From: Minisyncoccota bacterium
GTDB lineage: Bacteria; Patescibacteriota; Minisyncoccia; UBA6257; 2-01-FULL-56-20
Reading direction: 5' to 3'
Assembly (NCBI GenBank): GCA_035541855.1
Contig: DATKMM010000031.1
Span: forward strand, 1 to 37,570
Length of the DNA: 37,570 nt
The translations under genes were made by a program, and so were the position numbers. This document shows positions 1-6,383 of this stretch, piece after piece. Numbering within the stretch: the stretch's first letter is position 1; each line of letters starts with the position of its first letter. Under the pieces are notes generated by a model. That model was not told the DNA's origin. It saw only the letters and a program-made list of their open reading frames with translations, and ran no database searches.

Positions 1-207
1 CACCTTTCGACAGTAATCGATCAATGCATGGAAATCTAAAAAGAGAATCTCCGGATTTACCATCTCGGCAGATTTCCGGAAATCATCGACTTCGGTTGTT
101 GGGAATACCTGATGCCCCGCCGCAGTAAACGCACTTTTAAATCCTTCATACACCCAGCGATCAGCTCCAAGGCCATAAGGATTCAAAATGTTGTATAAAA
201 CCTTCAT
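1..207 (-). CDS. hypothetical protein, N-terminal fragment (gene runs off the window start); likely part of the glycan cluster
   Basis: Reverse-strand ATG at 205-207 overlaps the TAA of the upstream methyltransferase gene (TAATG). An open frame, MKVLYNILNPYGLGADRWVYEGFKSAFTAAGHQVF..., runs for 69 codons to position 1 with no stop. It is absent from the ORF track because it is truncated. Confidence 0.5.
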   Translation of the reverse strand, partial: MKVLYNILNPYGLGADRWVYEGFKSAFTAAGHQVFPTTEVDDFRKSAEMVNPEILFLDFHALIDYCRKV

Positions 208-980
208 TAAACGCGATAGATGCCTATTCCGGCCCATTTCTGGCCTCGATCTGCGATGACCTCGCGGCTATCTTCCTTCTTTATCTCGTTCCAAAACCGA
301 TCAACCAGGCAGCCCGACTCAACAGGATGGACCGCGATGTCATGGAATGCGATAACGCCCCCTTTTCTTACGAGCGGCGAATATAGCTCGAAATCCTTTT
401 TTACCCCTTCATACGTATGGTCACCGTCAATAAAAAGGAAGTCCAGTGGATTGTCGTCCAAAATCCGCCGTACCTTCTCCACTGCGGAAGCCGAATGGGA
501 ATCCTCACGCAAAAGATGGAGGCGTTGCTGCGGGCGGGCAAAGGTTTTATAGAGATTGATCTTCCACTCCGGGTAACCGCCGCCGAATTCCCCACCAGGA
601 AGATCCATGCTGATGACGGTTGCATAGGCATCAGCAAGGCGCGACCATAAAAACAAGGTCCCTCCGTTAGCGGTCCCGATCTCCATAACACTCTTCGGAT
701 GCATTTTTTTTACCACATTCGCCAGTTCGGTGATCTCGTATCGCACTTGAGCGGGCCGGATCAATCCGGCGAAGTTATCGGAGGCAAATTTTATCAAAAA
801 ATCAACGTTCGATTCCTCGGGGTCAAGCGTTTCAATGGCACGCTTTGCGCGTGGAACCAATACCCGTTTGAGCGGCTTAAGCTTATGATCAATGCGTCCG
901 CCGGCTTTTTTAAAAAGGCTTCCTACCCCCTCGGTTTTGAGAATCCTGATCGACTTCTGCGGTAATGATTCCTTTGGCAT
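207..980 (-). CDS. class I SAM-dependent methyltransferase (Methyltransf_24 / CmcI-like fold)
   Basis: 257-aa ORF. It has the Rossmann-type SAM motif VMEIGTANGGTLFLW and the downstream FIDGDHTYEGVKKDFELYSPLVRKGGVIAFHDI motif typical of this methyltransferase family. Confidence 0.8.
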   Translation of the reverse strand: MPKESLPQKSIRILKTEGVGSLFKKAGGRIDHKLKPLKRVLVPRAKRAIETLDPEESNVDFLIKFASDNFAGLIRPAQVRYEITELANVVKKMHPKSVMEIGTANGGTLFLWSRLADAYATVISMDLPGGEFGGGYPEWKINLYKTFARPQQRLHLLREDSHSASAVEKVRRILDDNPLDFLFIDGDHTYEGVKKDFELYSPLVRKGGVIAFHDIAVHPVESGCLVDRFWNEIKKEDSREVIADRGQKWAGIGIYRV

Positions 981-991
981 GAATCAAATTC

Positions 992-1996
992 TTATTGCTG
1001 ACCGCGAGATACTTCGGCAACCTGTTCGCTCACCCACGCATACGTTTTCCGCATGCCGTCTTCCAGCTTCGCGCTCGGCGCCCAACCGAGCATCTCCTTA
1101 ATGAGGCGATTATCGGAATTCCTACCGCGGACACCGAGCGGACCGCTAACGTGTTTTATCGAGAGCTTCTTGCGGGCGATCTTCATCGCCATTTCCACAA
1201 GTTGGTTGATCGTCACCATTTCATCAGAGCCGATATTCACGGGTCCGGTGAAATCCGACTGCATGAGGCGGCGCACTCCTTCAATGCATTCATCAATATA
1301 TAAGAATGAACGCGTCTGCAGGCCATCGCCCCAGATCTCGATCTCACCGCCATCAGGTGCTTCCGCTACTTTACGGCACATCGCTGCCGGAGCCTTTTCG
1401 CGGCCCCCGGTCCAAGTACCCTCGGGGCCGAAAATATTATGGAATCGGGCGATCCGGACCTGGATGCCATAGTTGCGTGCAAACGAAAGATATACATGCT
1501 CGCTGAACAATTTTTCCCAACCGTATTCGCTATCAGGAGCCGCCGGATACGCCGAATCTTCAGAGCACTTTGGATCATTTGGGTCTTCCTGATTATAGAG
1601 CGGGTACATGCACGCAGAAGAAGAATAAAAGATCTTTTTCAGGTTCCCGGTCTGCTGACCGACGTGCAGAACGTTCAAATTGATCGTCGCCGAATTATGC
1701 AAAATATCCGCATCGTGCTCGCCGGTGAACACGAACCCGGCGCCGCCCATGTCGGCTGCAAATTGGTACACCTCGTCAAATGGACGGCCGAAGATCTTTT
1801 TCGCGAACAGCTCACCGCGCAGATCCCCCTCAACGAATTCATCCGCAGCCGATGGCGCGAACTCCGGCTTTTTGAGGTCAGTACCCAAAACCCAGTATCC
1901 TTCGCTTTTTAATCGTTTTACCATATGCGAGCCAATGAACCCGCCCGCGCCACATACTAATGCTGTTTTTTGTGTCATAGCTCTACTATCATACAA
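992..1996 (-). CDS. GDP-mannose 3,5-epimerase-like NAD-dependent epimerase
   Basis: Near-collinear match to GDP-mannose 3,5-epimerase (GME) signatures: GAGGFIGSH NAD motif, AADMGGAGF, FYSSSACMYP, IARFHNIFGPEGTWTGGREKAPAAMCRK, WGDGLQTRSFLYIDECIEG, NIGSDEMV and GVRGRNSDN. The track start at 1996 is TTG; the ATG at 1978 (MTQKTALVCGAGG) is the more likely start. Confidence 0.85.
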   Translation of the reverse strand: MYDSRAMTQKTALVCGAGGFIGSHMVKRLKSEGYWVLGTDLKKPEFAPSAADEFVEGDLRGELFAKKIFGRPFDEVYQFAADMGGAGFVFTGEHDADILHNSATINLNVLHVGQQTGNLKKIFYSSSACMYPLYNQEDPNDPKCSEDSAYPAAPDSEYGWEKLFSEHVYLSFARNYGIQVRIARFHNIFGPEGTWTGGREKAPAAMCRKVAEAPDGGEIEIWGDGLQTRSFLYIDECIEGVRRLMQSDFTGPVNIGSDEMVTINQLVEMAMKIARKKLSIKHVSGPLGVRGRNSDNRLIKEMLGWAPSAKLEDGMRKTYAWVSEQVAEVSRGQQ

Positions 1997-2024
1997 GATA
2001 AATACCGCTTTTCAAGTCAGTATT

Positions 2025-2053
2025 TTGCCCGGCGTCCAAATCTCTGCTACAAT
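2025..2053 (+). promoter_or_regulatory. sigma70-like promoter candidate for the PheRS gene (TTGCCC-17 nt-TACAAT)
   Basis: TTGCCC at 2025-2030, a 17-nt spacer and TACAAT at 2048-2053. The start codon at 2062 lies only 8 nt after the -10 box and no Shine-Dalgarno (SD) sequence is present, implying a near-leaderless mRNA. Confidence 0.4.
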
Positions 2054-2061
2054 GCGGAAAT

Positions 2062-3198
2062 ATGGGAGCTGTGTACACCGTGCCGATGGATGACCAGGAA
2101 CGCGCGCTCGCCGCGCTCGCGCCGCGGACGGATGCGGAGGCGATGCGCATCAAGCGCTACCTCGCGATGCCGGACCTTTCGCGCGCGCCGGGCAGCCCGC
2201 TCCGCGAGATCGTGGAAAAGGCCAGGCAGGTGCCGGCGCTCGCGGGCTTCGACGATATCGTGATCCCGGAGATCGTGCCGGCGGATGTGAGCTTCGACCT
2301 CTTCGATTTCGCCCCGGACCACCCGGCCCGCAGCCGGTCGGACACGTATTTCCTGGACGACAACCACATTCTCCGCACGCACGACACGGTGATGTGGTAC
2401 TACTACACGCAGCTGCCGGAGGTGAAGACGCGGATCGCGCGGCGGGAAAAGCTCGGCGTGGTCTGCTACGGCAAGGTGTACCGCAAGGACGAGATCGACC
2501 GGAAGCACATGAACATCTTCCACCAGTTCGGCGGCTGGTACCTGACGCCGGCCGACACGGCGCCGCTCGCGCTCGACGACCTGCGCGGCGCCCTGACCCA
2601 GATCGTGAAAGGGCTCTTCGGCGCGGACGCGAAGTACCGCTTCCTCGACGACACGTTCCCCTACACCGACCCGTCGCTCCAGGTTGAAGTTGACGTGAAC
2701 GGCCAATGGATCGAGATCCTGGGCGGCGGCATGACGAAGCAAAGCGTGTTCAAAAAGTTCGGCGTGACGGGATACAACGCCTGGGCGTTCGGCTTCGGCT
2801 TGGAGCGGCTCGCGATCATCGGCATGGAGCTGCCGGACATCCGGCTTCTCTGGTCAACGGACGAACGCGTGAAACGGCAGCTCCACCTCGGCCGGAAGTT
2901 CGTGGAGGTGAGCAAATACCCGCCGGTCGTGCGCGACATCTCGTTCATCGTGCCGAAGACGTTCGCGCCGAACGATTATTTCGACCTCGTGCGCGACATC
3001 GCGGGCGACCTCGTGGAGCAGGTCGAGCTGATCGACGAATACGAGAACGCGGCGAAGTTCGGCGCGGACAAAAAGAGCTATGCCTACCGCATCACGTACC
3101 GCTCGGGCGAGCGGACGCTCACGAACGAGGAGGTGGACAGGCTCCATAAGACCATCGAAAAGCGGACGGCGGAGGAGTTCGGCGCGACCGTGCGCTGA
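2062..3198 (+). CDS. pheS: phenylalanine--tRNA ligase, single-chain mitochondrial-type (alpha catalytic core fused to a C-terminal FDX-ACB domain)
   Basis: Class II PheRS alpha motifs are present: DHPARSRSDTYF, LRTHDT, YGKVYRKDEIDRKHMNIFHQ, FPYTDPSLQVEV and motif 3 WAFGFGLERLAI. The C-terminal roughly 95 aa (2911-3195), SKYPPVVRDISF...NDYFDLVRDIAGDLVEQVELIDEY...SYAYRITYRSGERTLTNEEV, is an FDX-ACB fold normally found at the C-terminus of PheT or in mitochondrial FARS2. Confidence 0.85.
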   Translation: MGAVYTVPMDDQERALAALAPRTDAEAMRIKRYLAMPDLSRAPGSPLREIVEKARQVPALAGFDDIVIPEIVPADVSFDLFDFAPDHPARSRSDTYFLDDNHILRTHDTVMWYYYTQLPEVKTRIARREKLGVVCYGKVYRKDEIDRKHMNIFHQFGGWYLTPADTAPLALDDLRGALTQIVKGLFGADAKYRFLDDTFPYTDPSLQVEVDVNGQWIEILGGGMTKQSVFKKFGVTGYNAWAFGFGLERLAIIGMELPDIRLLWSTDERVKRQLHLGRKFVEVSKYPPVVRDISFIVPKTFAPNDYFDLVRDIAGDLVEQVELIDEYENAAKFGADKKSYAYRITYRSGERTLTNEEVDRLHKTIEKRTAEEFGATVR

Positions 3199-3201
3199 AC
3201 A

Positions 3202-3277
3202 GATAAAACAAACCGGCTCCCATCTTCGAGCATCCTTCAAGTTTAATGCTCTCAGATGGGAACCGGTTTGTTTTATC
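3202..3277. terminator. bidirectional intrinsic terminator hairpin H1 (24-bp stem, A-tract/U-tract flanks) between convergent genes
   Basis: 3202-3225 pairs with 3254-3277 with a single C.A mismatch on the plus strand, which becomes a G.U wobble on the minus strand. The base of the stem is GATAAAACAAA...TTTGTTTTATC. The apex contains CATCCTTCAAGTTTAATGC (3231-3249). Confidence 0.6.
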
Positions 3278-3280
3278 CGC

Positions 3281-3366
3281 GCTGTAGCACAAACACCCAG
3301 GTGCCATTCCCGGTCATCCTTCAAGTTTAATGCCCGGGAATGGCACCTGGGTGTTTGTGCTACAGC
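3281..3366. terminator. long hairpin H2 (perfect 33-bp stem) overlapping the stop codon of the GT11 gene
   Basis: 3281-3313 is perfectly complementary to 3334-3366. The apex carries the same CATCCTTCAAGTTTAATGC (3315-3333) as H1, although the stems are unrelated in sequence. Confidence 0.5.
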
Positions 3367-4256
3367 GCCATCCAATCCGGCGGGACAATGCCGTCCCGGT
3401 CCGCGATCTGCGTGCGCGACCACTGCCGTGGCGCGATGACGATCTTCCCCGGGCTTTGACTGAGCCACGCGGCCCACCACCAGAACGTGCTGTTCGCGAT
3501 AATATGGTGCCTGGCGAGCGACGCGAGATGCATGGCGGCCTCCCAACCGATGTCCTGCGGGATATAGACCGTTGGGAATGGCGGCTTGATGTTCTCGCGG
3601 CACCACGGGATGTCGTCGGAAAAAATGAAAAAGCGCGGCGGCGCACCTTTGCCCGCACGGGCAGTCATCTGCCTGATAGCGCGGTCGTAGTACGCCATGT
3701 CCGTCCCGCCGAAGTTTTTTATATTGGCCGCGCTCGTGTAATCGCTGCGGCGCACGGACAGCGCGACGGAGTTCGATTTTAGGATATCCCGCGCCAAGCC
3801 TGCGGCAGCGCCCGAAAGCTCGTGCCGGAAGCTGAACGCCTGCCGCACCTCGGGGGCGATGTCCTCGAAATAGCGCCAGCTCTGCCAGAAACCCCACAGC
3901 CAGACATCGCCGCCGACGGAAAGCACGGCGGGATCGAAATGCCGCCCGGAATTTTCGCGGACGATCCTGCGGACATGAAGGATATCCTTCGCCTTTGCGA
4001 GCCCGAGGTCGAGTCCGAGCCACAGGCCCGGGACGGGAACGCGGGAGGATAATTTCGAAAGCGCCGTAAGGCGCGGTTCAATGCCAAACACGCCAAGCTC
4101 ATAACGCCGGTAAACGAATCCGGGGCGCGGAAAGCGGTCGTTCAGGAACGTCGTGTCGAGCGCCAGGCCGGTGCCGTTTTTTTTGGCAAGATCTGATCCC
4201 AGCGCGTACTGGAACATCTGGTTGCCCAACCCGCCGCGAAGCGCAACGGTCACCAT
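3360..4256 (-). CDS. GT11-family alpha-1,2-fucosyltransferase-like glycosyltransferase
   Basis: The N-terminal GGLGNQMFQYA hallmark and the C-terminal IIANSTFWWWAAWL motif of GT11 are both present. I place the start at the ATG at 4254-4256 (MVTVALRGGLGNQ), 17 nt after the upstream gene stop. The 38 Arg-rich codons upstream in the track ORF are probably not translated. Confidence 0.8.
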   Translation of the reverse strand: MVTVALRGGLGNQMFQYALGSDLAKKNGTGLALDTTFLNDRFPRPGFVYRRYELGVFGIEPRLTALSKLSSRVPVPGLWLGLDLGLAKAKDILHVRRIVRENSGRHFDPAVLSVGGDVWLWGFWQSWRYFEDIAPEVRQAFSFRHELSGAAAGLARDILKSNSVALSVRRSDYTSAANIKNFGGTDMAYYDRAIRQMTARAGKGAPPRFFIFSDDIPWCRENIKPPFPTVYIPQDIGWEAAMHLASLARHHIIANSTFWWWAAWLSQSPGKIVIAPRQWSRTQIADRDGIVPPDWMAL

Positions 4257-4273
4257 GCTTGGCTTTTGAGACC

Positions 4274-4930
4274 TTATTTGCCGGCGGGCGCCTTCGCCGA
4301 TCCGGAAGCGGTCTGCGCGCCGGCCAGGAACTGCGCGAGCGCCTGCTTGACGCTCTGGTCGCTCGGCCAATTGGTCAGGATCTTGTCCGCGATCGCCACC
4401 GTCCCGGTCACATTGCCTTCGGCGCGATAAACATCAAAGAGGCCATAAAGCGGCTGGGGGCGGTTCGGCCCGAGCTGTTCGCCTTCCTCGTAATATTGCT
4501 GGGCCGTGCTCAGGAAGTTCGCCTGGCCGGTCCGCGCGAACGCGACCTCGTTGATGGCGCCGACCAGATACAGGTCCTGGCCGAAGCTCATGCCCCTGCC
4601 GCGGGAAAGGATCGGTTGGTAGTAACCCATCAGGAATCCCACCAGCTCGTCCGTCGTCGTCGCATCCGGACTCTGCTGGACGAAGCCAAGCACGCTGTTC
4701 GCCGTGTTGCGGACTAGTTCCTCCTGGCCGATGGGCGACGGATAATCGAGCGGGACCGAAAGCCGGTTCTCGAGATCGGCAAGCGAGGTCGGCGGGTTGC
4801 CCTGCAGACCCTGGAGCGTCGCGATGAACATCTGGGCCTTCCGCAACGGCAGGTACTCGCCGTAATACGCCACCGAAAGGATGGCGACCGAGATGGCGAT
4901 GGCGATTATTTTTTTAGCTGTGGGATTCAT
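4274..4930 (-). CDS. hypothetical membrane-anchored protein (single N-terminal TM helix)
   Basis: 218-aa ORF with an N-terminal hydrophobic helix (KIIAIAISVAILSVAYY) followed by a soluble region. Its start overlaps the stop of the upstream O-antigen-ligase-like gene by 17 nt, suggesting an operon. I recognise no family. Confidence 0.6.
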   Translation of the reverse strand: MNPTAKKIIAIAISVAILSVAYYGEYLPLRKAQMFIATLQGLQGNPPTSLADLENRLSVPLDYPSPIGQEELVRNTANSVLGFVQQSPDATTTDELVGFLMGYYQPILSRGRGMSFGQDLYLVGAINEVAFARTGQANFLSTAQQYYEEGEQLGPNRPQPLYGLFDVYRAEGNVTGTVAIADKILTNWPSDQSVKQALAQFLAGAQTASGSAKAPAGK

Positions 4931-6383
4931 GTTTTTTCAGGAAATACGACGAGAACGCCAGGAACAGGAACAGGCTGATGTACATCGGCAGCACGTCGAA
5001 GATCGCGATACCCTGCACGAGATACGCGACCGGCGTGGCGAGCATAAGCGCGTTCTGGAAAACATGCACGGACTGGTGCTCGCCGGCCGGGGCGATATCG
5101 GCCCGCTTGCGCCGGAAGAACAGCCAGGCGAAGGTCGCGAAGATGGCGATATAGCCCAGGAACCCGATGATCCCGGTTTCGGCCAGATAGTCGAAGAACA
5201 CGCTGTGCGCACGGTCGAACCAGGTTTCCGTGTTCTGGCCGGGAACGAAGAAATTAGGATTGAAATGCTGGTCGAACACCGCCGTAAAGTTCTCGGGACC
5301 CCAGCCGAAAATGGGCCGCTCGAGGAATCCCTGCCACGCCTCGCCCCATACCCAGAACCGCGTTTGCGCCGAAGAATCCGTCACGCTGATCTGCAGCAAC
5401 CGCCCGCCCGGGATGTTGTTCAGAAATGGTTCGTTCCGGATGGCGAAGATGCCGAGCCCAAGGACGATCATGACACCGATGGCGACGAGCGACCATTTGC
5501 GCATACGGCTCGAACCGGCGAATGCAAGATACAGCACGCCGACGAAGATTCCCGCAGCCAAACCAAGGAATGCGCCGCGCGTCTGGCTGAGGTAGAAAAA
5601 GAAAAGGAATGCAAGGATCAGGATGCCGTAGCCCCAGGACTTGATCGCGGTCAGCTTGCCGGCAATTTTAGAAGCCGCCCAGAGATACGCCGCATAGAAC
5701 ATCGAGAACATGAGATATGGCGCAACGTACGCGGGATTGCCAAGCGATCCCTCAAAACGGCCGTCGATCAGCAGGTGCCACCATCCAGTTGGCGCAGTAC
5801 CACCCGTGTACGGACTGATAAAACCCGGATAACCGAAATTTGCAAACAGGCCATACCCCACCATGCCCGCCGCCGCGATGAGCGAATATTTAAAGAGGTT
5901 CTTCCACTCCTCTTCATGCTGGAAGAGCATCGTAAGCAGGAGGAAGAACGCATAGTAATGGAGCATCTGGAAACCGCCTTCGCCGCGCTCATAGTTCGAC
6001 CAGAAAGCCGCGTGCATATCGAGCGCGAAAAGGCAGGCCAGCAGGTATGCGCCCACGAAAGCCGTCACCGCGATCACCAGCGGCCGCTTGAACGTGGACC
6101 GGTAAAGCTGCCTGACCTCGTTCTGCTTCGCCTCGAACGCCCACCAGAGCAGCCATGCGATAAGCCCTAGCTCGACGGTAAAGCGGAAGAAGTAATCCTT
6201 GCCGCCGATGAACGGGAAGAAAATGGAGTTTACGACGATGAGCACCGCGAAGACCGCCGCGTAGCAATACCATTTCGCTATCCGTTTGAACGAGACGCCG
6301 AAGATCCGGGCAATAACGCCTCCGAGCGGGAGCGCTACCATCGTTACGAACGTTCCCGTGTAATTGAATATGGAGTCCGGCAT
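4914..6383 (-). CDS. O-antigen ligase / polymerase family (Wzy_C) polytopic membrane protein
   Basis: 489-aa multi-TM protein with the Wzy_C-type block YLSQTRGAFLGLAAG and a periplasmic loop RFWVWGEAWQGFLERPIFGWGPENF...AHSVFFDYLAETGIIG. Confidence 0.75.
   Translation of the reverse strand: MPDSIFNYTGTFVTMVALPLGGVIARIFGVSFKRIAKWYCYAAVFAVLIVVNSIFFPFIGGKDYFFRFTVELGLIAWLLWWAFEAKQNEVRQLYRSTFKRPLVIAVTAFVGAYLLACLFALDMHAAFWSNYERGEGGFQMLHYYAFFLLLTMLFQHEEEWKNLFKYSLIAAAGMVGYGLFANFGYPGFISPYTGGTAPTGWWHLLIDGRFEGSLGNPAYVAPYLMFSMFYAAYLWAASKIAGKLTAIKSWGYGILILAFLFFFYLSQTRGAFLGLAAGIFVGVLYLAFAGSSRMRKWSLVAIGVMIVLGLGIFAIRNEPFLNNIPGGRLLQISVTDSSAQTRFWVWGEAWQGFLERPIFGWGPENFTAVFDQHFNPNFFVPGQNTETWFDRAHSVFFDYLAETGIIGFLGYIAIFATFAWLFFRRKRADIAPAGEHQSVHVFQNALMLATPVAYLVQGIAIFDVLPMYISLFLFLAFSSYFLKKHESHS

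What the first reader, a model, noticed from the sequence alone, without database searches (positions are those of the whole stretch)
2062..3198. Mitochondrial-type single-chain PheRS in a bacterium
Bacterial PheRS is normally an (alpha-beta)2 heterotetramer with pheS and pheT adjacent.

**Architecture here.**
- A 378-aa protein joins the alpha-type class II catalytic core directly to a C-terminal FDX-ACB domain (2911-3195).
- In canonical bacteria that domain is the last domain of the beta subunit.
- This is the architecture of monomeric mitochondrial FARS2.

**Sequence resemblance to FARS2 (from memory).** The C-terminal blocks resemble the human FARS2 C-terminus strikingly:
- SKYPPVVRDISF
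- NDYFDLVRDIAGDLVEQVELIDEY
- SYAYRITYRSGERTLTNEEV

**Context and implications.**
- No pheT follows; the next element is a terminator pair.
- If this is the only PheRS in the genome, the organism lacks the beta-subunit editing site.
- The gene also bears on the evolutionary origin of the mitochondrial enzyme.
Basis: partly seen in the sequence, partly recalled or inferred. Interest (0 to 1): 0.6.

Follow-up and report, generated by a model that had tools for sequence, protein, structure and literature searches.

The report
Single-chain mitochondrial-type PheRS in CPR bacterium
This tiny-genome (Patescibacteria/CPR) bacterium has only a one-piece phenylalanyl-tRNA synthetase built like the mitochondrial enzyme. 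It lacks the two-subunit proofreading enzyme that reviews describe as conserved in all prokaryotes, and relatives show the one-piece gene has repeatedly replaced the normal pheS-pheT genes at the same locus.

Summary
Window 2062-3198 (+) encodes a 378-aa protein with a PheS-type class II catalytic core (residues 45-273) fused to an FDX-ACB anticodon-binding domain (284-378). Its best solved relative is human mitochondrial PheRS. An AlphaFold model (pLDDT 95) superposes on 3CMQ.

- **Sole PheRS.** The 662-kb, 90%-complete genome has no pheT, no B3_4 or B5 domain and no second PheS core. It does encode tRNA-Phe(GAA).
- **Mutually exclusive with pheS-pheT.** In 40 relatives, 20 carry this gene and 20 carry pheS-pheT. 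In a 401-genome phylum sample, 28 carry this gene and none of them has a pheT.
- **Replacement in place.** Congeneric genomes differ in state while keeping the same flanking genes. The gene tree does not follow taxonomy, so spread by transfer within CPR is likely.
- **Relation to FARS2.** IQ-TREE places the CPR clade as sister to the eukaryote plus giant-virus FARS2 clade, not inside it. The direction of transfer is unresolved.

The gene scores below the NCBIfam cut-offs for pheS_mito, pheS and SrmL, and NCBI names its homologues "hypothetical protein". I found no paper describing it. This scan has reported the same architecture repeatedly on other Paceibacteria DNA. Enzyme activity, monomer state and fidelity are untested.

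The parts
2062..3198 (+). Single-chain PheRS gene (378 aa plus stop)
   Evidence: The ORF is open. Pfam finds tRNA-synt_2d plus FDX-ACB. The best PDB relative is human mitochondrial PheRS at E 1e-59. It is the only PheRS-like gene in the genome.
2062..2193 (+). N-terminal helical segment (residues 1-44), conserved in the CPR clade
   Evidence: The model shows helices at residues 10-19 and 25-35 with pLDDT 93-96. The alignment consensus in this region is conserved. It aligns with the end of the N-terminal region of canonical PheS. Its role is not tested.
2194..2880 (+). Class II catalytic core of PheS type (residues 45-273)
   Evidence: Pfam PF01409 E 1.9e-47. Motif 2 R141, motif 3 R249, H87, R90, D143, D146, H149, F153 and Q155 are invariant across CPR and FARS2-like sequences. 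Pocket residue T202 corresponds to E. coli T251, A242 to E. coli A294, and Y201 to E. coli F250.
2911..3195 (+). FDX-ACB (B8-type) anticodon-binding domain (residues 284-378)
   Evidence: Pfam PF03147 E 4.6e-25. It aligns to E. coli PheT residues 699-794. It is 42-54% identical to the same domain of eukaryotic FARS2, against 24-40% to CPR PheT.
2025..2053 (+). Promoter-like site (TTGCCC, 17 nt spacer, TG-TACAAT) ending 8 nt before the ATG
   Evidence: Consensus scan only and direct reading of the sequence. Not evidence of function.
3202..3277 (+). Long hairpin after the stop codon with a U-rich 3' arm; likely terminator of the PheRS gene
   Evidence: Inverted repeat with 32-nt arms, 91% complementary. 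dG -45.6 kcal/mol, z -9.0.
3279..3368 (-). Second long hairpin, overlapping the 3' end of the convergent GT11 gene; likely its terminator
   Evidence: Inverted repeat with 39-nt arms, 97% complementary. dG -80.7 kcal/mol, z -15. It shares an 18-nt loop motif with the first hairpin and with three other sites in the genome.

Best explanation
The gene encodes the cell's only, housekeeping phenylalanyl-tRNA synthetase. It is a single chain of the FARS2 (PheRS-M) design.

**How it most likely works.**
- The class II core binds Phe and ATP, makes Phe-AMP and transfers Phe to A76 of tRNA-Phe(GAA).
- The C-terminal FDX-ACB domain reads the GAA anticodon after swinging from a closed to an open position, as in human mitochondrial PheRS.
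- There is no B3/B4 editing domain, in cis or in trans. Tyr-tRNA-Phe and m-Tyr-tRNA-Phe cannot be proofread by the usual route, so fidelity rests on the synthetic pocket alone.

**How it most likely arose.** The gene belongs to a bacterial clade that spread within Patescibacteria. It displaced the ancestral pheS-pheT operon at the same locus, many times.

**Shown here:** the architecture, conserved catalytic residues, the predicted fold, sole-copy status, mutual exclusivity with pheS-pheT, and replacement at the same locus.

**Inferred:** catalytic activity, the monomeric state, domain swinging, and loss of editing in vivo.
For: **Domains and homology.** Domains are. The best PDB hits are the human mitochondrial PheRS entries at E about 1e-59, against 1e-35 or weaker for bacterial PheS.

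**Predicted structure.** The AF2 model has pLDDT 95.2 and pTM 0.90. Foldseek's top hit is 3CMQ, the closed state (TM 0.78/0.73, E 2e-37). The open tRNA-bound state 3TUP ranks seventh.

**Conserved residues.** Catalytic and pocket residues are invariant in 37 CPR and 17 FARS2-like sequences. T202 and A242 equal E. coli T251 and A294.

**Substrate tRNA.** tRNA-Phe(GAA) with A73 is present in the genome.

**Sole PheRS.** Searches find no other candidate.

**Relatives.**
- 20 genomes have one full-length hit (45-83% identity by BLASTP; one cut at a contig end) and no second FDX-ACB.
- 20 genomes have the canonical genes instead: 18 show pheS and a 650-710-aa pheT side by side, and in G029 and G040 picks up only one of the two.
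- One 77%-complete genome has neither.

**Phylum sample of 401 genomes.**
- 28 have the single-chain gene.
- In those same 28, the pheT profile reaches only 1e-11 to 1e-45, which is domain-sized pieces.
- Several of the 28 are 100% complete in 2-10 contigs.

**Same locus.**
- In family relatives the gene lies directly upstream of cca, exactly as pheS-pheT-cca does in canonical relatives.
- Three same-genus pairs share flanks at 74-88% aa identity while the middle is swapped.
- One single-chain genome keeps a 134-aa stand-alone copy of the PheT N-terminal tRNA-binding domain. It is 74% identical to its congener's PheT.
Against: - No biochemical test of any CPR member is known to me. None was found in the searchable literature.
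- The protein scores below NCBIfam's pheS_mito cut-off (228 against 258 bits).
- The genome is only 90% complete in 74 contigs, so absence of pheS-pheT in this genome alone is not proof. The complete relatives carry that argument.
- In this genome the gene is not in the conserved slot next to cca. It sits in a glycan-gene cluster on another contig.
- Y201 replaces the pocket Phe that is conserved in bacterial and mitochondrial enzymes. Its effect is unknown.
Confidence: 0.85

Rival explanations
1. The protein is a PheS-related paralogue with another job, like the uncharacterised SrmL 'mystery ligase'. The real PheRS would then be missing from the assembly, or Phe-tRNA would be supplied by a host.
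For: The NCBIfam SrmL profile (NF051887) scores nearly as well as pheS_mito: 224.7 against 228 bits, both below cut-off. A true SrmL (P0265, 419 bits) groups near the CPR clade on a long branch in the FastTree tree. The genome is 90% complete. CPR bacteria depend on hosts for many functions.
Against: All catalytic and Phe-pocket residues are conserved. No pheS-pheT was found in any of the 48 genomes that carry this gene, including 100%-complete ones. It replaces pheS-pheT at the same locus. No SrmL above cut-off was found in 401 CPR genomes. A cell with its own tRNA-Phe, ribosomes and other synthetases needs a PheRS.
Confidence: 0.05
2. The gene is functional PheRS but does not work alone as a monomer. 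It would act as a homodimer or together with a stand-alone tRNA-binding protein that substitutes for the lost beta-subunit domains.
For: Apart from mitochondrial PheRS, class II synthetases are not known as monomers (PMC3275996). In 23 of the 28 single-chain genomes of the phylum sample the pheT profile finds a second short piece. In the two I examined it is a stand-alone PheT N-terminal tRNA-binding domain, directly upstream of the gene in one of them. This genome has a MetRS-C-terminal-type tRNA_bind ORF on contig C65.
Against: This genome and its nearest relatives lack the PheT-type relic, so it cannot be obligatory. The predicted fold matches the monomeric FARS2 closely. No interaction was tested.
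Confidence: 0.1
3. The contig, or the gene, is contamination or mis-binning from a eukaryote, organelle or giant virus.
For: The closest characterised relatives are eukaryotic. FARS2-like genes also occur on giant-virus-like contigs.
Against: The gene lies on a 37.6-kb contig with bacterial genes and tRNAs. It has 76-83% identical orthologues in same-genus and same-family genomes and in at least 592 species-representative bacterial genomes named Kaiser-, Giovannoni-, Nomura- and Jorgensenbacteria among others. It forms its own clade apart from eukaryotes and viruses.
Confidence: 0.01

Closest known systems
Mitochondrial/organellar monomeric PheRS (human FARS2, yeast MSF1; 'PheRS-M' of AARS Online; NCBIfam TIGR00469; PDB 3CMQ, 3TUP)
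   Same: - The two-domain chimera is the same: an alpha-type catalytic module plus a B8/FDX-ACB domain, with no editing domain.
- It is the best sequence and fold match.
- The catalytic residues are shared, and Thr lies at the pocket floor (T202 = human T235).
- Both domains are closer to FARS2 than to bacterial PheS or PheT.
   Different: - It is bacterial and chromosomal, with no targeting peptide.
- It lacks the insertion that splits the FARS2 alignment between residues 157 and 168.
- It scores 228 bits, below the 258.35-bit cut-off.
- It forms a sister clade rather than nesting among eukaryotes.
- Y201 is present where FARS2 has Phe.
Canonical bacterial (alpha-beta)2 PheRS (PheS TIGR00468 and PheT TIGR00472; E. 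coli 3PCO, T. thermophilus 1PYS)
   Same: The catalytic core is homologous (29% identity to E. coli PheS). The FDX-ACB domain is homologous to PheT B8. It presumably has the same substrate tRNA, and in relatives it occupies the same genomic slot upstream of cca.
   Different: It has no beta subunit, so it lacks the B1-B7 domains, the B3/B4 editing site and the long coiled-coil. It scores 142 bits against a 237-bit cut-off for pheS. It is separated from CPR PheS by long branches.
SrmL, 'PheS-related mystery ligase' (NCBIfam NF051887)
   Same: The length class and architecture are similar: the profile covers both the core and the FDX-ACB region, and P0001 residues 69-368 match profile positions 39-345 of 349. 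A true SrmL groups near the CPR clade in one tree.
   Different: P0001 scores 224.7 bits against a 300-bit cut-off. SrmL lies on a very long branch. No SrmL was found in 401 CPR genomes or 14 control genomes. SrmL's function is unknown, whereas this gene is the sole PheRS candidate.
FARS2-like genes of 340-370 aa on giant-virus-like metagenome contigs
   Same: They are single-chain, lack a presequence and are of similar length.
   Different: They pass the pheS_mito cut-off (260-330 bits) and fall in the eukaryote clade. The one context I looked at is a 252-kb contig full of ORFans, with TK, MC1 and ankyrin genes. I read that context as a giant virus; this is my interpretation, not a test.
Editing-deficient PheRS of Mycoplasma (from my own knowledge: Li et al. 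2011, PNAS; not checked here)
   Same: It is a reduced-genome bacterium that tolerates loss of PheRS proofreading.
   Different: Mycoplasma keeps the heterotetramer with a mutated editing site. Here the whole beta subunit is gone.

Membership tests
Monomeric organellar PheRS (PheRS-M, TIGR00469 pheS_mito) | One chain made of a PheS-type class II core plus a C-terminal FDX-ACB (B8) domain, with no B1-B7 domains | tested here: met
   Pfam finds PF01409 at residues 45-273 and PF03147 at 284-378, and nothing else.
Monomeric organellar PheRS (PheRS-M, TIGR00469 pheS_mito) | Scores above the curated family cut-off (258.35 bits) | tested here: not met
   The score is 228 bits. Eukaryotic and virus-like relatives score 250-395 bits, one of 17 just under the cut-off.
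Monomeric organellar PheRS (PheRS-M, TIGR00469 pheS_mito) | Fold and domain arrangement of 3CMQ | tested here: met
   The AF2 model has pLDDT 95.2. Foldseek aligns it to 3CMQ with TM 0.78/0.73 and rmsd 3.5 over 386 columns.
Monomeric organellar PheRS (PheRS-M, TIGR00469 pheS_mito) | Falls phylogenetically inside the eukaryotic FARS2 clade | tested here: not met
   It is a sister clade. With LG+C20, CPR has 98 and FARS2-like 95 SH-aLRT support. With LG+F+G4 the values are 98.9 and 81.1. FastTree on a larger set nested it inside, with weak support.
Monomeric organellar PheRS (PheRS-M, TIGR00469 pheS_mito) | Active as a monomer and charges tRNA-Phe | not testable with these tools
   This needs a biochemical test. 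Only the conserved catalytic residues and the presence of tRNA-Phe(GAA) speak for it.
Monomeric organellar PheRS (PheRS-M, TIGR00469 pheS_mito) | Serves as the only PheRS of its translation compartment, without editing | tested here: met
   The genome has no pheT, B3_4, B5 or second core. The same holds in 47 other genomes that carry the gene.
Canonical bacterial PheS (TIGR00468) | Scores above the cut-off (237.45 bits) and is partnered with a PheT beta subunit | tested here: not met
   The score is 142.3 bits. There is no pheT in the genome.
SrmL PheS-related mystery ligase (NF051887) | Scores above the cut-off (300 bits) | tested here: not met
   The score is 224.7 bits. A true member scores 419.5 bits.

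The most novel reading that the evidence does not exclude
The single-chain PheRS was invented in bacteria. The eukaryotic mitochondrial enzyme FARS2 would then descend from a CPR-like (or other bacterial) single-chain lineage acquired before the last eukaryotic common ancestor. It would not have been assembled inside eukaryotes from an endosymbiont's pheS and pheT.

The sister relationship of the CPR and eukaryote-plus-virus clades fits this. So does the presence of the gene in a deep, code-25 CPR lineage. Neither result excludes the reverse direction: a stem-eukaryote or viral gene passing into CPR and then spreading by transfer.
Probability: 0.3. Interest if true: 0.85.

Novelty: new variant of a known kind. 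Interest (0 to 1): 0.68.

Why it matters
[quoted passage not shown] It also calls mitochondrial PheRS 'the only known example' of a monomeric class II catalytic module (PMC3275996). Here a large bacterial radiation uses the minimal form as its only PheRS. At least 592 species-representative genomes carry a relative, as do about half of the genomes in this organism's order and 7% of a phylum-wide sample.

**It is a natural fidelity experiment.** These free-standing bacterial lineages have lost all PheRS editing. That makes them a natural test of how much Phe/Tyr and m-Tyr mistranslation a cell tolerates.

**It offers matched comparisons.** Congeneric genomes differ in carrying the one-piece or the two-subunit enzyme. 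This gives matched pairs for studying why one form displaces the other.

**It bears on the origin of FARS2.** The bacterial clade is the nearest outgroup to FARS2. The long-open question of where the mitochondrial enzyme came from can therefore be tested by phylogeny.

**It exposes an annotation gap.** NCBI's pipeline calls these proteins 'hypothetical', and genome-completeness or metabolic surveys that look for pheT will miscount these genomes.

Tried and rejected
- **AU test of an alternative topology.** I tried to test a tree with the CPR clade held together with four FARS2-like sequences, under the mixture model. It did not finish after about 1150 s over four runs, so there is no result. 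An IQ-TREE run with 1000 ultrafast bootstraps also timed out. I fell back on a fast LG+F+G4 search with SH-aLRT.
- **tRNA-Phe identity elements in single-chain versus canonical genomes.** A BLAST search with the 74-nt gene recovered only five true tRNA-Phe genes. That is too few to compare, so I dropped this.
- **SrmL as the family.** Rejected on score and on its absence from 401 CPR genomes. The context of one SrmL gene was uninformative.
- **Recent foreign acquisition of the gene in this genome.**
  - The gene has 64.6% GC against 59.8% for the genome. However, 8% of same-size windows are as GC-rich, and the relatives' genes are GC-poorer. Composition therefore gives no support.
  - No remnant of the gene lies in the old slot.
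- **Stand-alone PheT-type tRNA-binding helper in this genome.** Not found. The only tRNA_bind ORF is of the MetRS C-terminal type.
- **D-aminoacyl-tRNA deacylase (Tyr_Deacylase).** Not found in this 90%-complete genome.
- **Literature.** Five searches found no paper describing a bacterial single-chain PheRS. The library lacks most subscription journals, so this is not proof that none exists.
Full report
**The object.** Window 2062-3198 (+) is an uninterrupted ORF of 378 codons.
- Pfam places a PheS-type class II core (tRNA-synt_2d) at residues 45-273 (E 1.9e-47).
- Pfam places a ferredoxin-fold anticodon-binding domain (FDX-ACB) at residues 284-378 (E 4.6e-25), which is nt 2911-3195.
- Among solved structures, the six human mitochondrial PheRS sequences come first (E about 1e-59). 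Bacterial PheS alpha chains follow at 1e-35 or weaker, and PheT beta chains match only through their last domain.

**Structure and active site.** I aligned 54 sequences: 33 CPR genes, four further members of the clade, and 17 FARS2-like sequences (A1). AlphaFold2 on this alignment gives a confident model (mean pLDDT 95.2, pTM 0.90).
- Foldseek ranks 3CMQ first. This is human mitochondrial PheRS in the closed state (TM 0.78/0.73, rmsd 3.5 over 386 columns).
- The open, tRNA-bound state 3TUP aligns with TM 0.59. Bacterial alpha chains align through the core alone.
- Residues invariant across the CPR and FARS2-like sequences include H87, R90, R141 (motif 2), D143, D146, H149, F153, Q155, G244 and R249 (motif 3).
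- Against E. coli PheS, T202 aligns with T251 and A242 with A294. These are the two residues that set the size of the Phe pocket. Y201 aligns with F250, which corresponds to T. thermophilus Phe-alpha-260 (PMC3275996).
- Y201 is a feature of the CPR clade. It is Tyr in 31 of 37 CPR sequences, and Phe in all 16 FARS2-like sequences that have a residue there.
- The review calls the same change in cytosolic eukaryotic PheRS conservative. I attach no functional claim to it.
- The FDX-ACB domain aligns to E. coli PheT residues 699-794.
- Both domains are closer to eukaryotic FARS2 than to canonical bacterial proteins. The core is 34-39% identical to FARS2 and the FDX-ACB domain 42-54%. Against canonical CPR PheS the core is 25-31% identical, and against CPR PheT B8 the FDX-ACB domain is 24-40%.

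The fusion was therefore inherited as a unit, not re-made from the local pheS and pheT.

**It is the only PheRS here.** The window is contig C31 of a 662,252-bp, 74-contig genome that is 90.4% complete, 1.1% contaminated and 59.6% GC.
- The pheT_bact profile hits only the FDX-ACB domain of this gene.
- B3_4, the editing domain, finds nothing at E<=1.
- B5 gives only a 12.8-bit hit.
- The only other tRNA-synt_2d hit is a 42-residue stretch of a class IIb synthetase.
- The genome encodes tRNA-Phe(GAA) with A73, and 33 tRNAs in all.
- No D-aminoacyl-tRNA deacylase was found.
- The single tRNA_bind ORF (contig C65) is of the MetRS C-terminal type, not a PheT relic.

**Distribution.** Among 40 relatives from the same genus, family and order:
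- 20 have one full-length match (45-83% identity by BLASTP; one is cut at a contig end) and no second FDX-ACB.
- 20 have the canonical genes instead. In 18 of them a pheS (about 25-31% identical) lies beside a 650-710-aa pheT. In G029 and G040 picks up only one of the two genes, and G029's pheT is confirmed.
- One 77%-complete genome has neither.

In an even sample of 401 genomes of the phylum, each at least 80% complete:
- 28 have the single-chain gene.
- In exactly those 28, the best pheT match is only domain-sized (E 1e-11 to 1e-45). 320 genomes pass the pheT cut-off, and most of the rest have shorter but clearly multi-domain pheT genes.
- The apparent exception, G046 (5.9e-45), is a stand-alone 137-aa open frame homologous to the PheT N-terminal tRNA-binding domain.
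- These tallies include G190, an unpublished genome, which counts as one canonical-pheT genome. No other claim rests on it.

Their records are named Kaiser-, Colwell-, Giovannoni-, Nomura-, Yanofsky-, Jorgensen-, Zambryski-, Staskawicz- and Doudnabacteria, Paceibacterota, Parcubacteria and so on. Some date from the 2015-2016 CPR surveys. NCBI names these proteins 'hypothetical protein', and JGI names them 'phenylalanyl-tRNA synthetase alpha chain'.

**Replacement in place.** In the family's single-chain genomes the gene is directly followed by a roughly 490-aa gene that Pfam identifies as a CCA-adding enzyme (PolyA_pol head, RNA-binding and HD domains). In the canonical genomes the order is pheS-pheT-cca.

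Three genera contain both states. Comparing their loci shows:
- **Genus g323 (G387 versus G410).** The flanks are 79% and 88% identical at the protein level on either side. A 1.1-kb single-chain gene sits in one genome and a 3.1-kb pheS-pheT pair in the other.
- **Genus g53 (G316 versus G289).** The slot is the same, but the gene is inverted relative to its flanks.
- **Genus g306 (G384 versus G360).** The downstream gene is 84% identical. G384 retains a 134-aa ORF immediately upstream of the single-chain gene. That ORF is 74% identical to the N-terminal tRNA-binding domain of G360's PheT and matches pheT_bact positions 41-151.

This relic shows the direction of change in that lineage: a canonical pheT was there first.

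The single-chain gene tree does not follow taxonomy. The window's family needs at least five changes on well-supported branches, and members of other classes nest among it. Repeated transfer within Patescibacteria followed by displacement is the simplest reading. Recurrent de novo fusion is excluded, because all copies form one clade far from CPR PheS.

**This genome's own locus.** Here the gene is not next to cca.
- The ancestral neighbours are a sigma factor, a 237-aa protein and cca. All lie on contig C32, with a 530-bp non-coding gap where same-genus relatives have the PheRS gene. No remnant is present.
- The gene now sits between a GDP-sugar epimerase-like gene and a GT11 glycosyltransferase. 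This stretch has no DNA counterpart in the nearest relatives.
- Composition gives no sign of recent import.
- I read this as a relocation. Assembly or binning error has not been excluded.
- Upstream lies a promoter-like site that ends 8 nt before the ATG.

**Relation to FARS2.** A search of 1.84 billion cluster representatives found only 203 clusters at E<=1e-30. The full-length hits fall into three kinds.
1. **CPR-type sequences.** These include P0125 and P0130. P0130 lies on a 32%-GC bacterial contig with an ATP-synthase operon. Its in-frame TGA codons align with invariant Gly columns, which indicates genetic code 25 of Gracilibacteria/Absconditabacteria. Another member, P0124, comes from a MAG labelled Oligoflexia.
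2. **Bona fide eukaryotic mitochondrial enzymes.** Examples are Branchiostoma, Schizosaccharomyces Msf1, Coemansia, a chytrid and Salpingoeca.
3. **Presequence-less proteins of 340-370 aa.** These pass the pheS_mito cut-off. One lies on a 252-kb contig that looks like a giant virus.

The trees gave these results:
- IQ-TREE under LG+C20 gives three clean groups when rooted on canonical PheS including E. coli: canonical, a CPR clade (98 SH-aLRT) and a FARS2-like clade (95).
- A fast LG+F+G4 search agrees, with support of 98.9 and 81.1.
- FastTree on a larger set that included the long-branched SrmL placed the CPR clade inside the FARS2-like radiation, with weak support.
- An AU test did not finish.

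The bacterial clade is therefore most likely the sister of the mitochondrial one. The architecture predates their split, and which domain of life had it first remains open.

**Known or new.**
- The review of PheRS forms states that heterotetramers are conserved in all known prokaryotes and that mitochondrial PheRS is the only monomeric class II module (PMC3275996).
- AARS Online lists PheRS-M with FARS2 only (PMC11580382).
- I found no paper on a bacterial single-chain PheRS.
- Earlier agents of this scan reported the same architecture on other Paceibacteria windows. From those notes I took leads and re-tested each here: same-slot replacement, the cca neighbour, the beta-subunit relic, the pocket change and the giant-virus copies.
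- This window adds four things. The first is a whole-genome demonstration that the gene is the sole PheRS. The second is a quantified mutual exclusivity with pheS-pheT. The third is within-genus state changes with conserved flanks. The fourth is the sister-clade result, including a code-25 lineage.

**Verdict.** This is a real and functional-looking gene. It is very probably the housekeeping, editing-free PheRS of this organism. It is a bacterial variant of the mitochondrial-type enzyme, widespread in Patescibacteria and so far unnamed by annotation pipelines.

Noticed in passing
window 3202-3368; also G000 C47:8787, C47:10786 (-), C55:2287 (-): A family of long intergenic hairpins with stems of 30-40 bp. 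The stems differ in sequence, but the loop region CAT(C/T)CTTCAAGTTTAATG is conserved. There are five copies in the 662-kb genome, two of them in tandem after the PheRS gene. A conserved loop on variable stems suggests a protein- or RNA-recognised element rather than a plain terminator.
   Followed up: partly
G000 C48:4208-4281 (-) and G002 C2:62210-62283: The tRNA-Phe(GAA) genes of this genome and a congener have TCCGATT in the T-loop. That is C55 in place of the near-universal U55 (pseudouridine 55). More distant relatives have TTCGATT. The CCA end is encoded in the gene.
   Followed up: no
G000 C32:5096-5632 against window 2062-3198: The conserved slot for the PheRS gene, between a 237-aa gene and cca and downstream of a sigma factor, is an empty 530-bp spacer in this genome. 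The gene sits instead on contig C31 among glycan genes that have no DNA counterpart in the nearest relatives.
   Followed up: partly
L023:1076-1480 (G384); G046 C1:41657-42007: Stand-alone ORFs or open frames of 134-137 aa are homologous to the PheT N-terminal tRNA-binding domain. They are kept in genomes that lost the rest of pheT. In G384 the ORF lies immediately upstream of the single-chain PheRS and is 74% identical to a congener's PheT. In 23 of the 28 single-chain genomes the pheT profile finds a second short piece. This may be a tRNA-binding helper acting in trans.
   Followed up: partly
L071:9463-10833 (protein P0130): A 456-aa single-chain PheRS lies on a 32%-GC bacterial contig. Its 13 in-frame TGA codons mostly align with conserved Gly columns, which indicates genetic code 25. 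It is sister to the Paceibacteria-type clade.
   Followed up: partly
protein P0124 (MBX7144632.1): A 414-aa member of the CPR single-chain clade is deposited under an Oligoflexia MAG. This could be mis-binning, or transfer outside Patescibacteria.
   Followed up: no
window 1-6383: The gene is embedded in a surface-glycan cluster. The cluster holds a Methyltransf_24/CmcI-like methyltransferase (207-980, -), a GDP-sugar epimerase/dehydratase-family gene (992-1996, -), a GT11 glycosyltransferase (3360-4370, -) and an O-antigen-ligase-like membrane protein (4914-6383, -). Another first-stage note covers this cluster.
   Followed up: partly
L073 (JGI 3300010938, 252-kb contig): A presequence-less 360-aa FARS2-type gene sits among ORFans together with thymidine kinase, an MC1 chromatin protein, a C1 peptidase and ankyrin-repeat genes. 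The contig looks like a giant virus.
   Followed up: no
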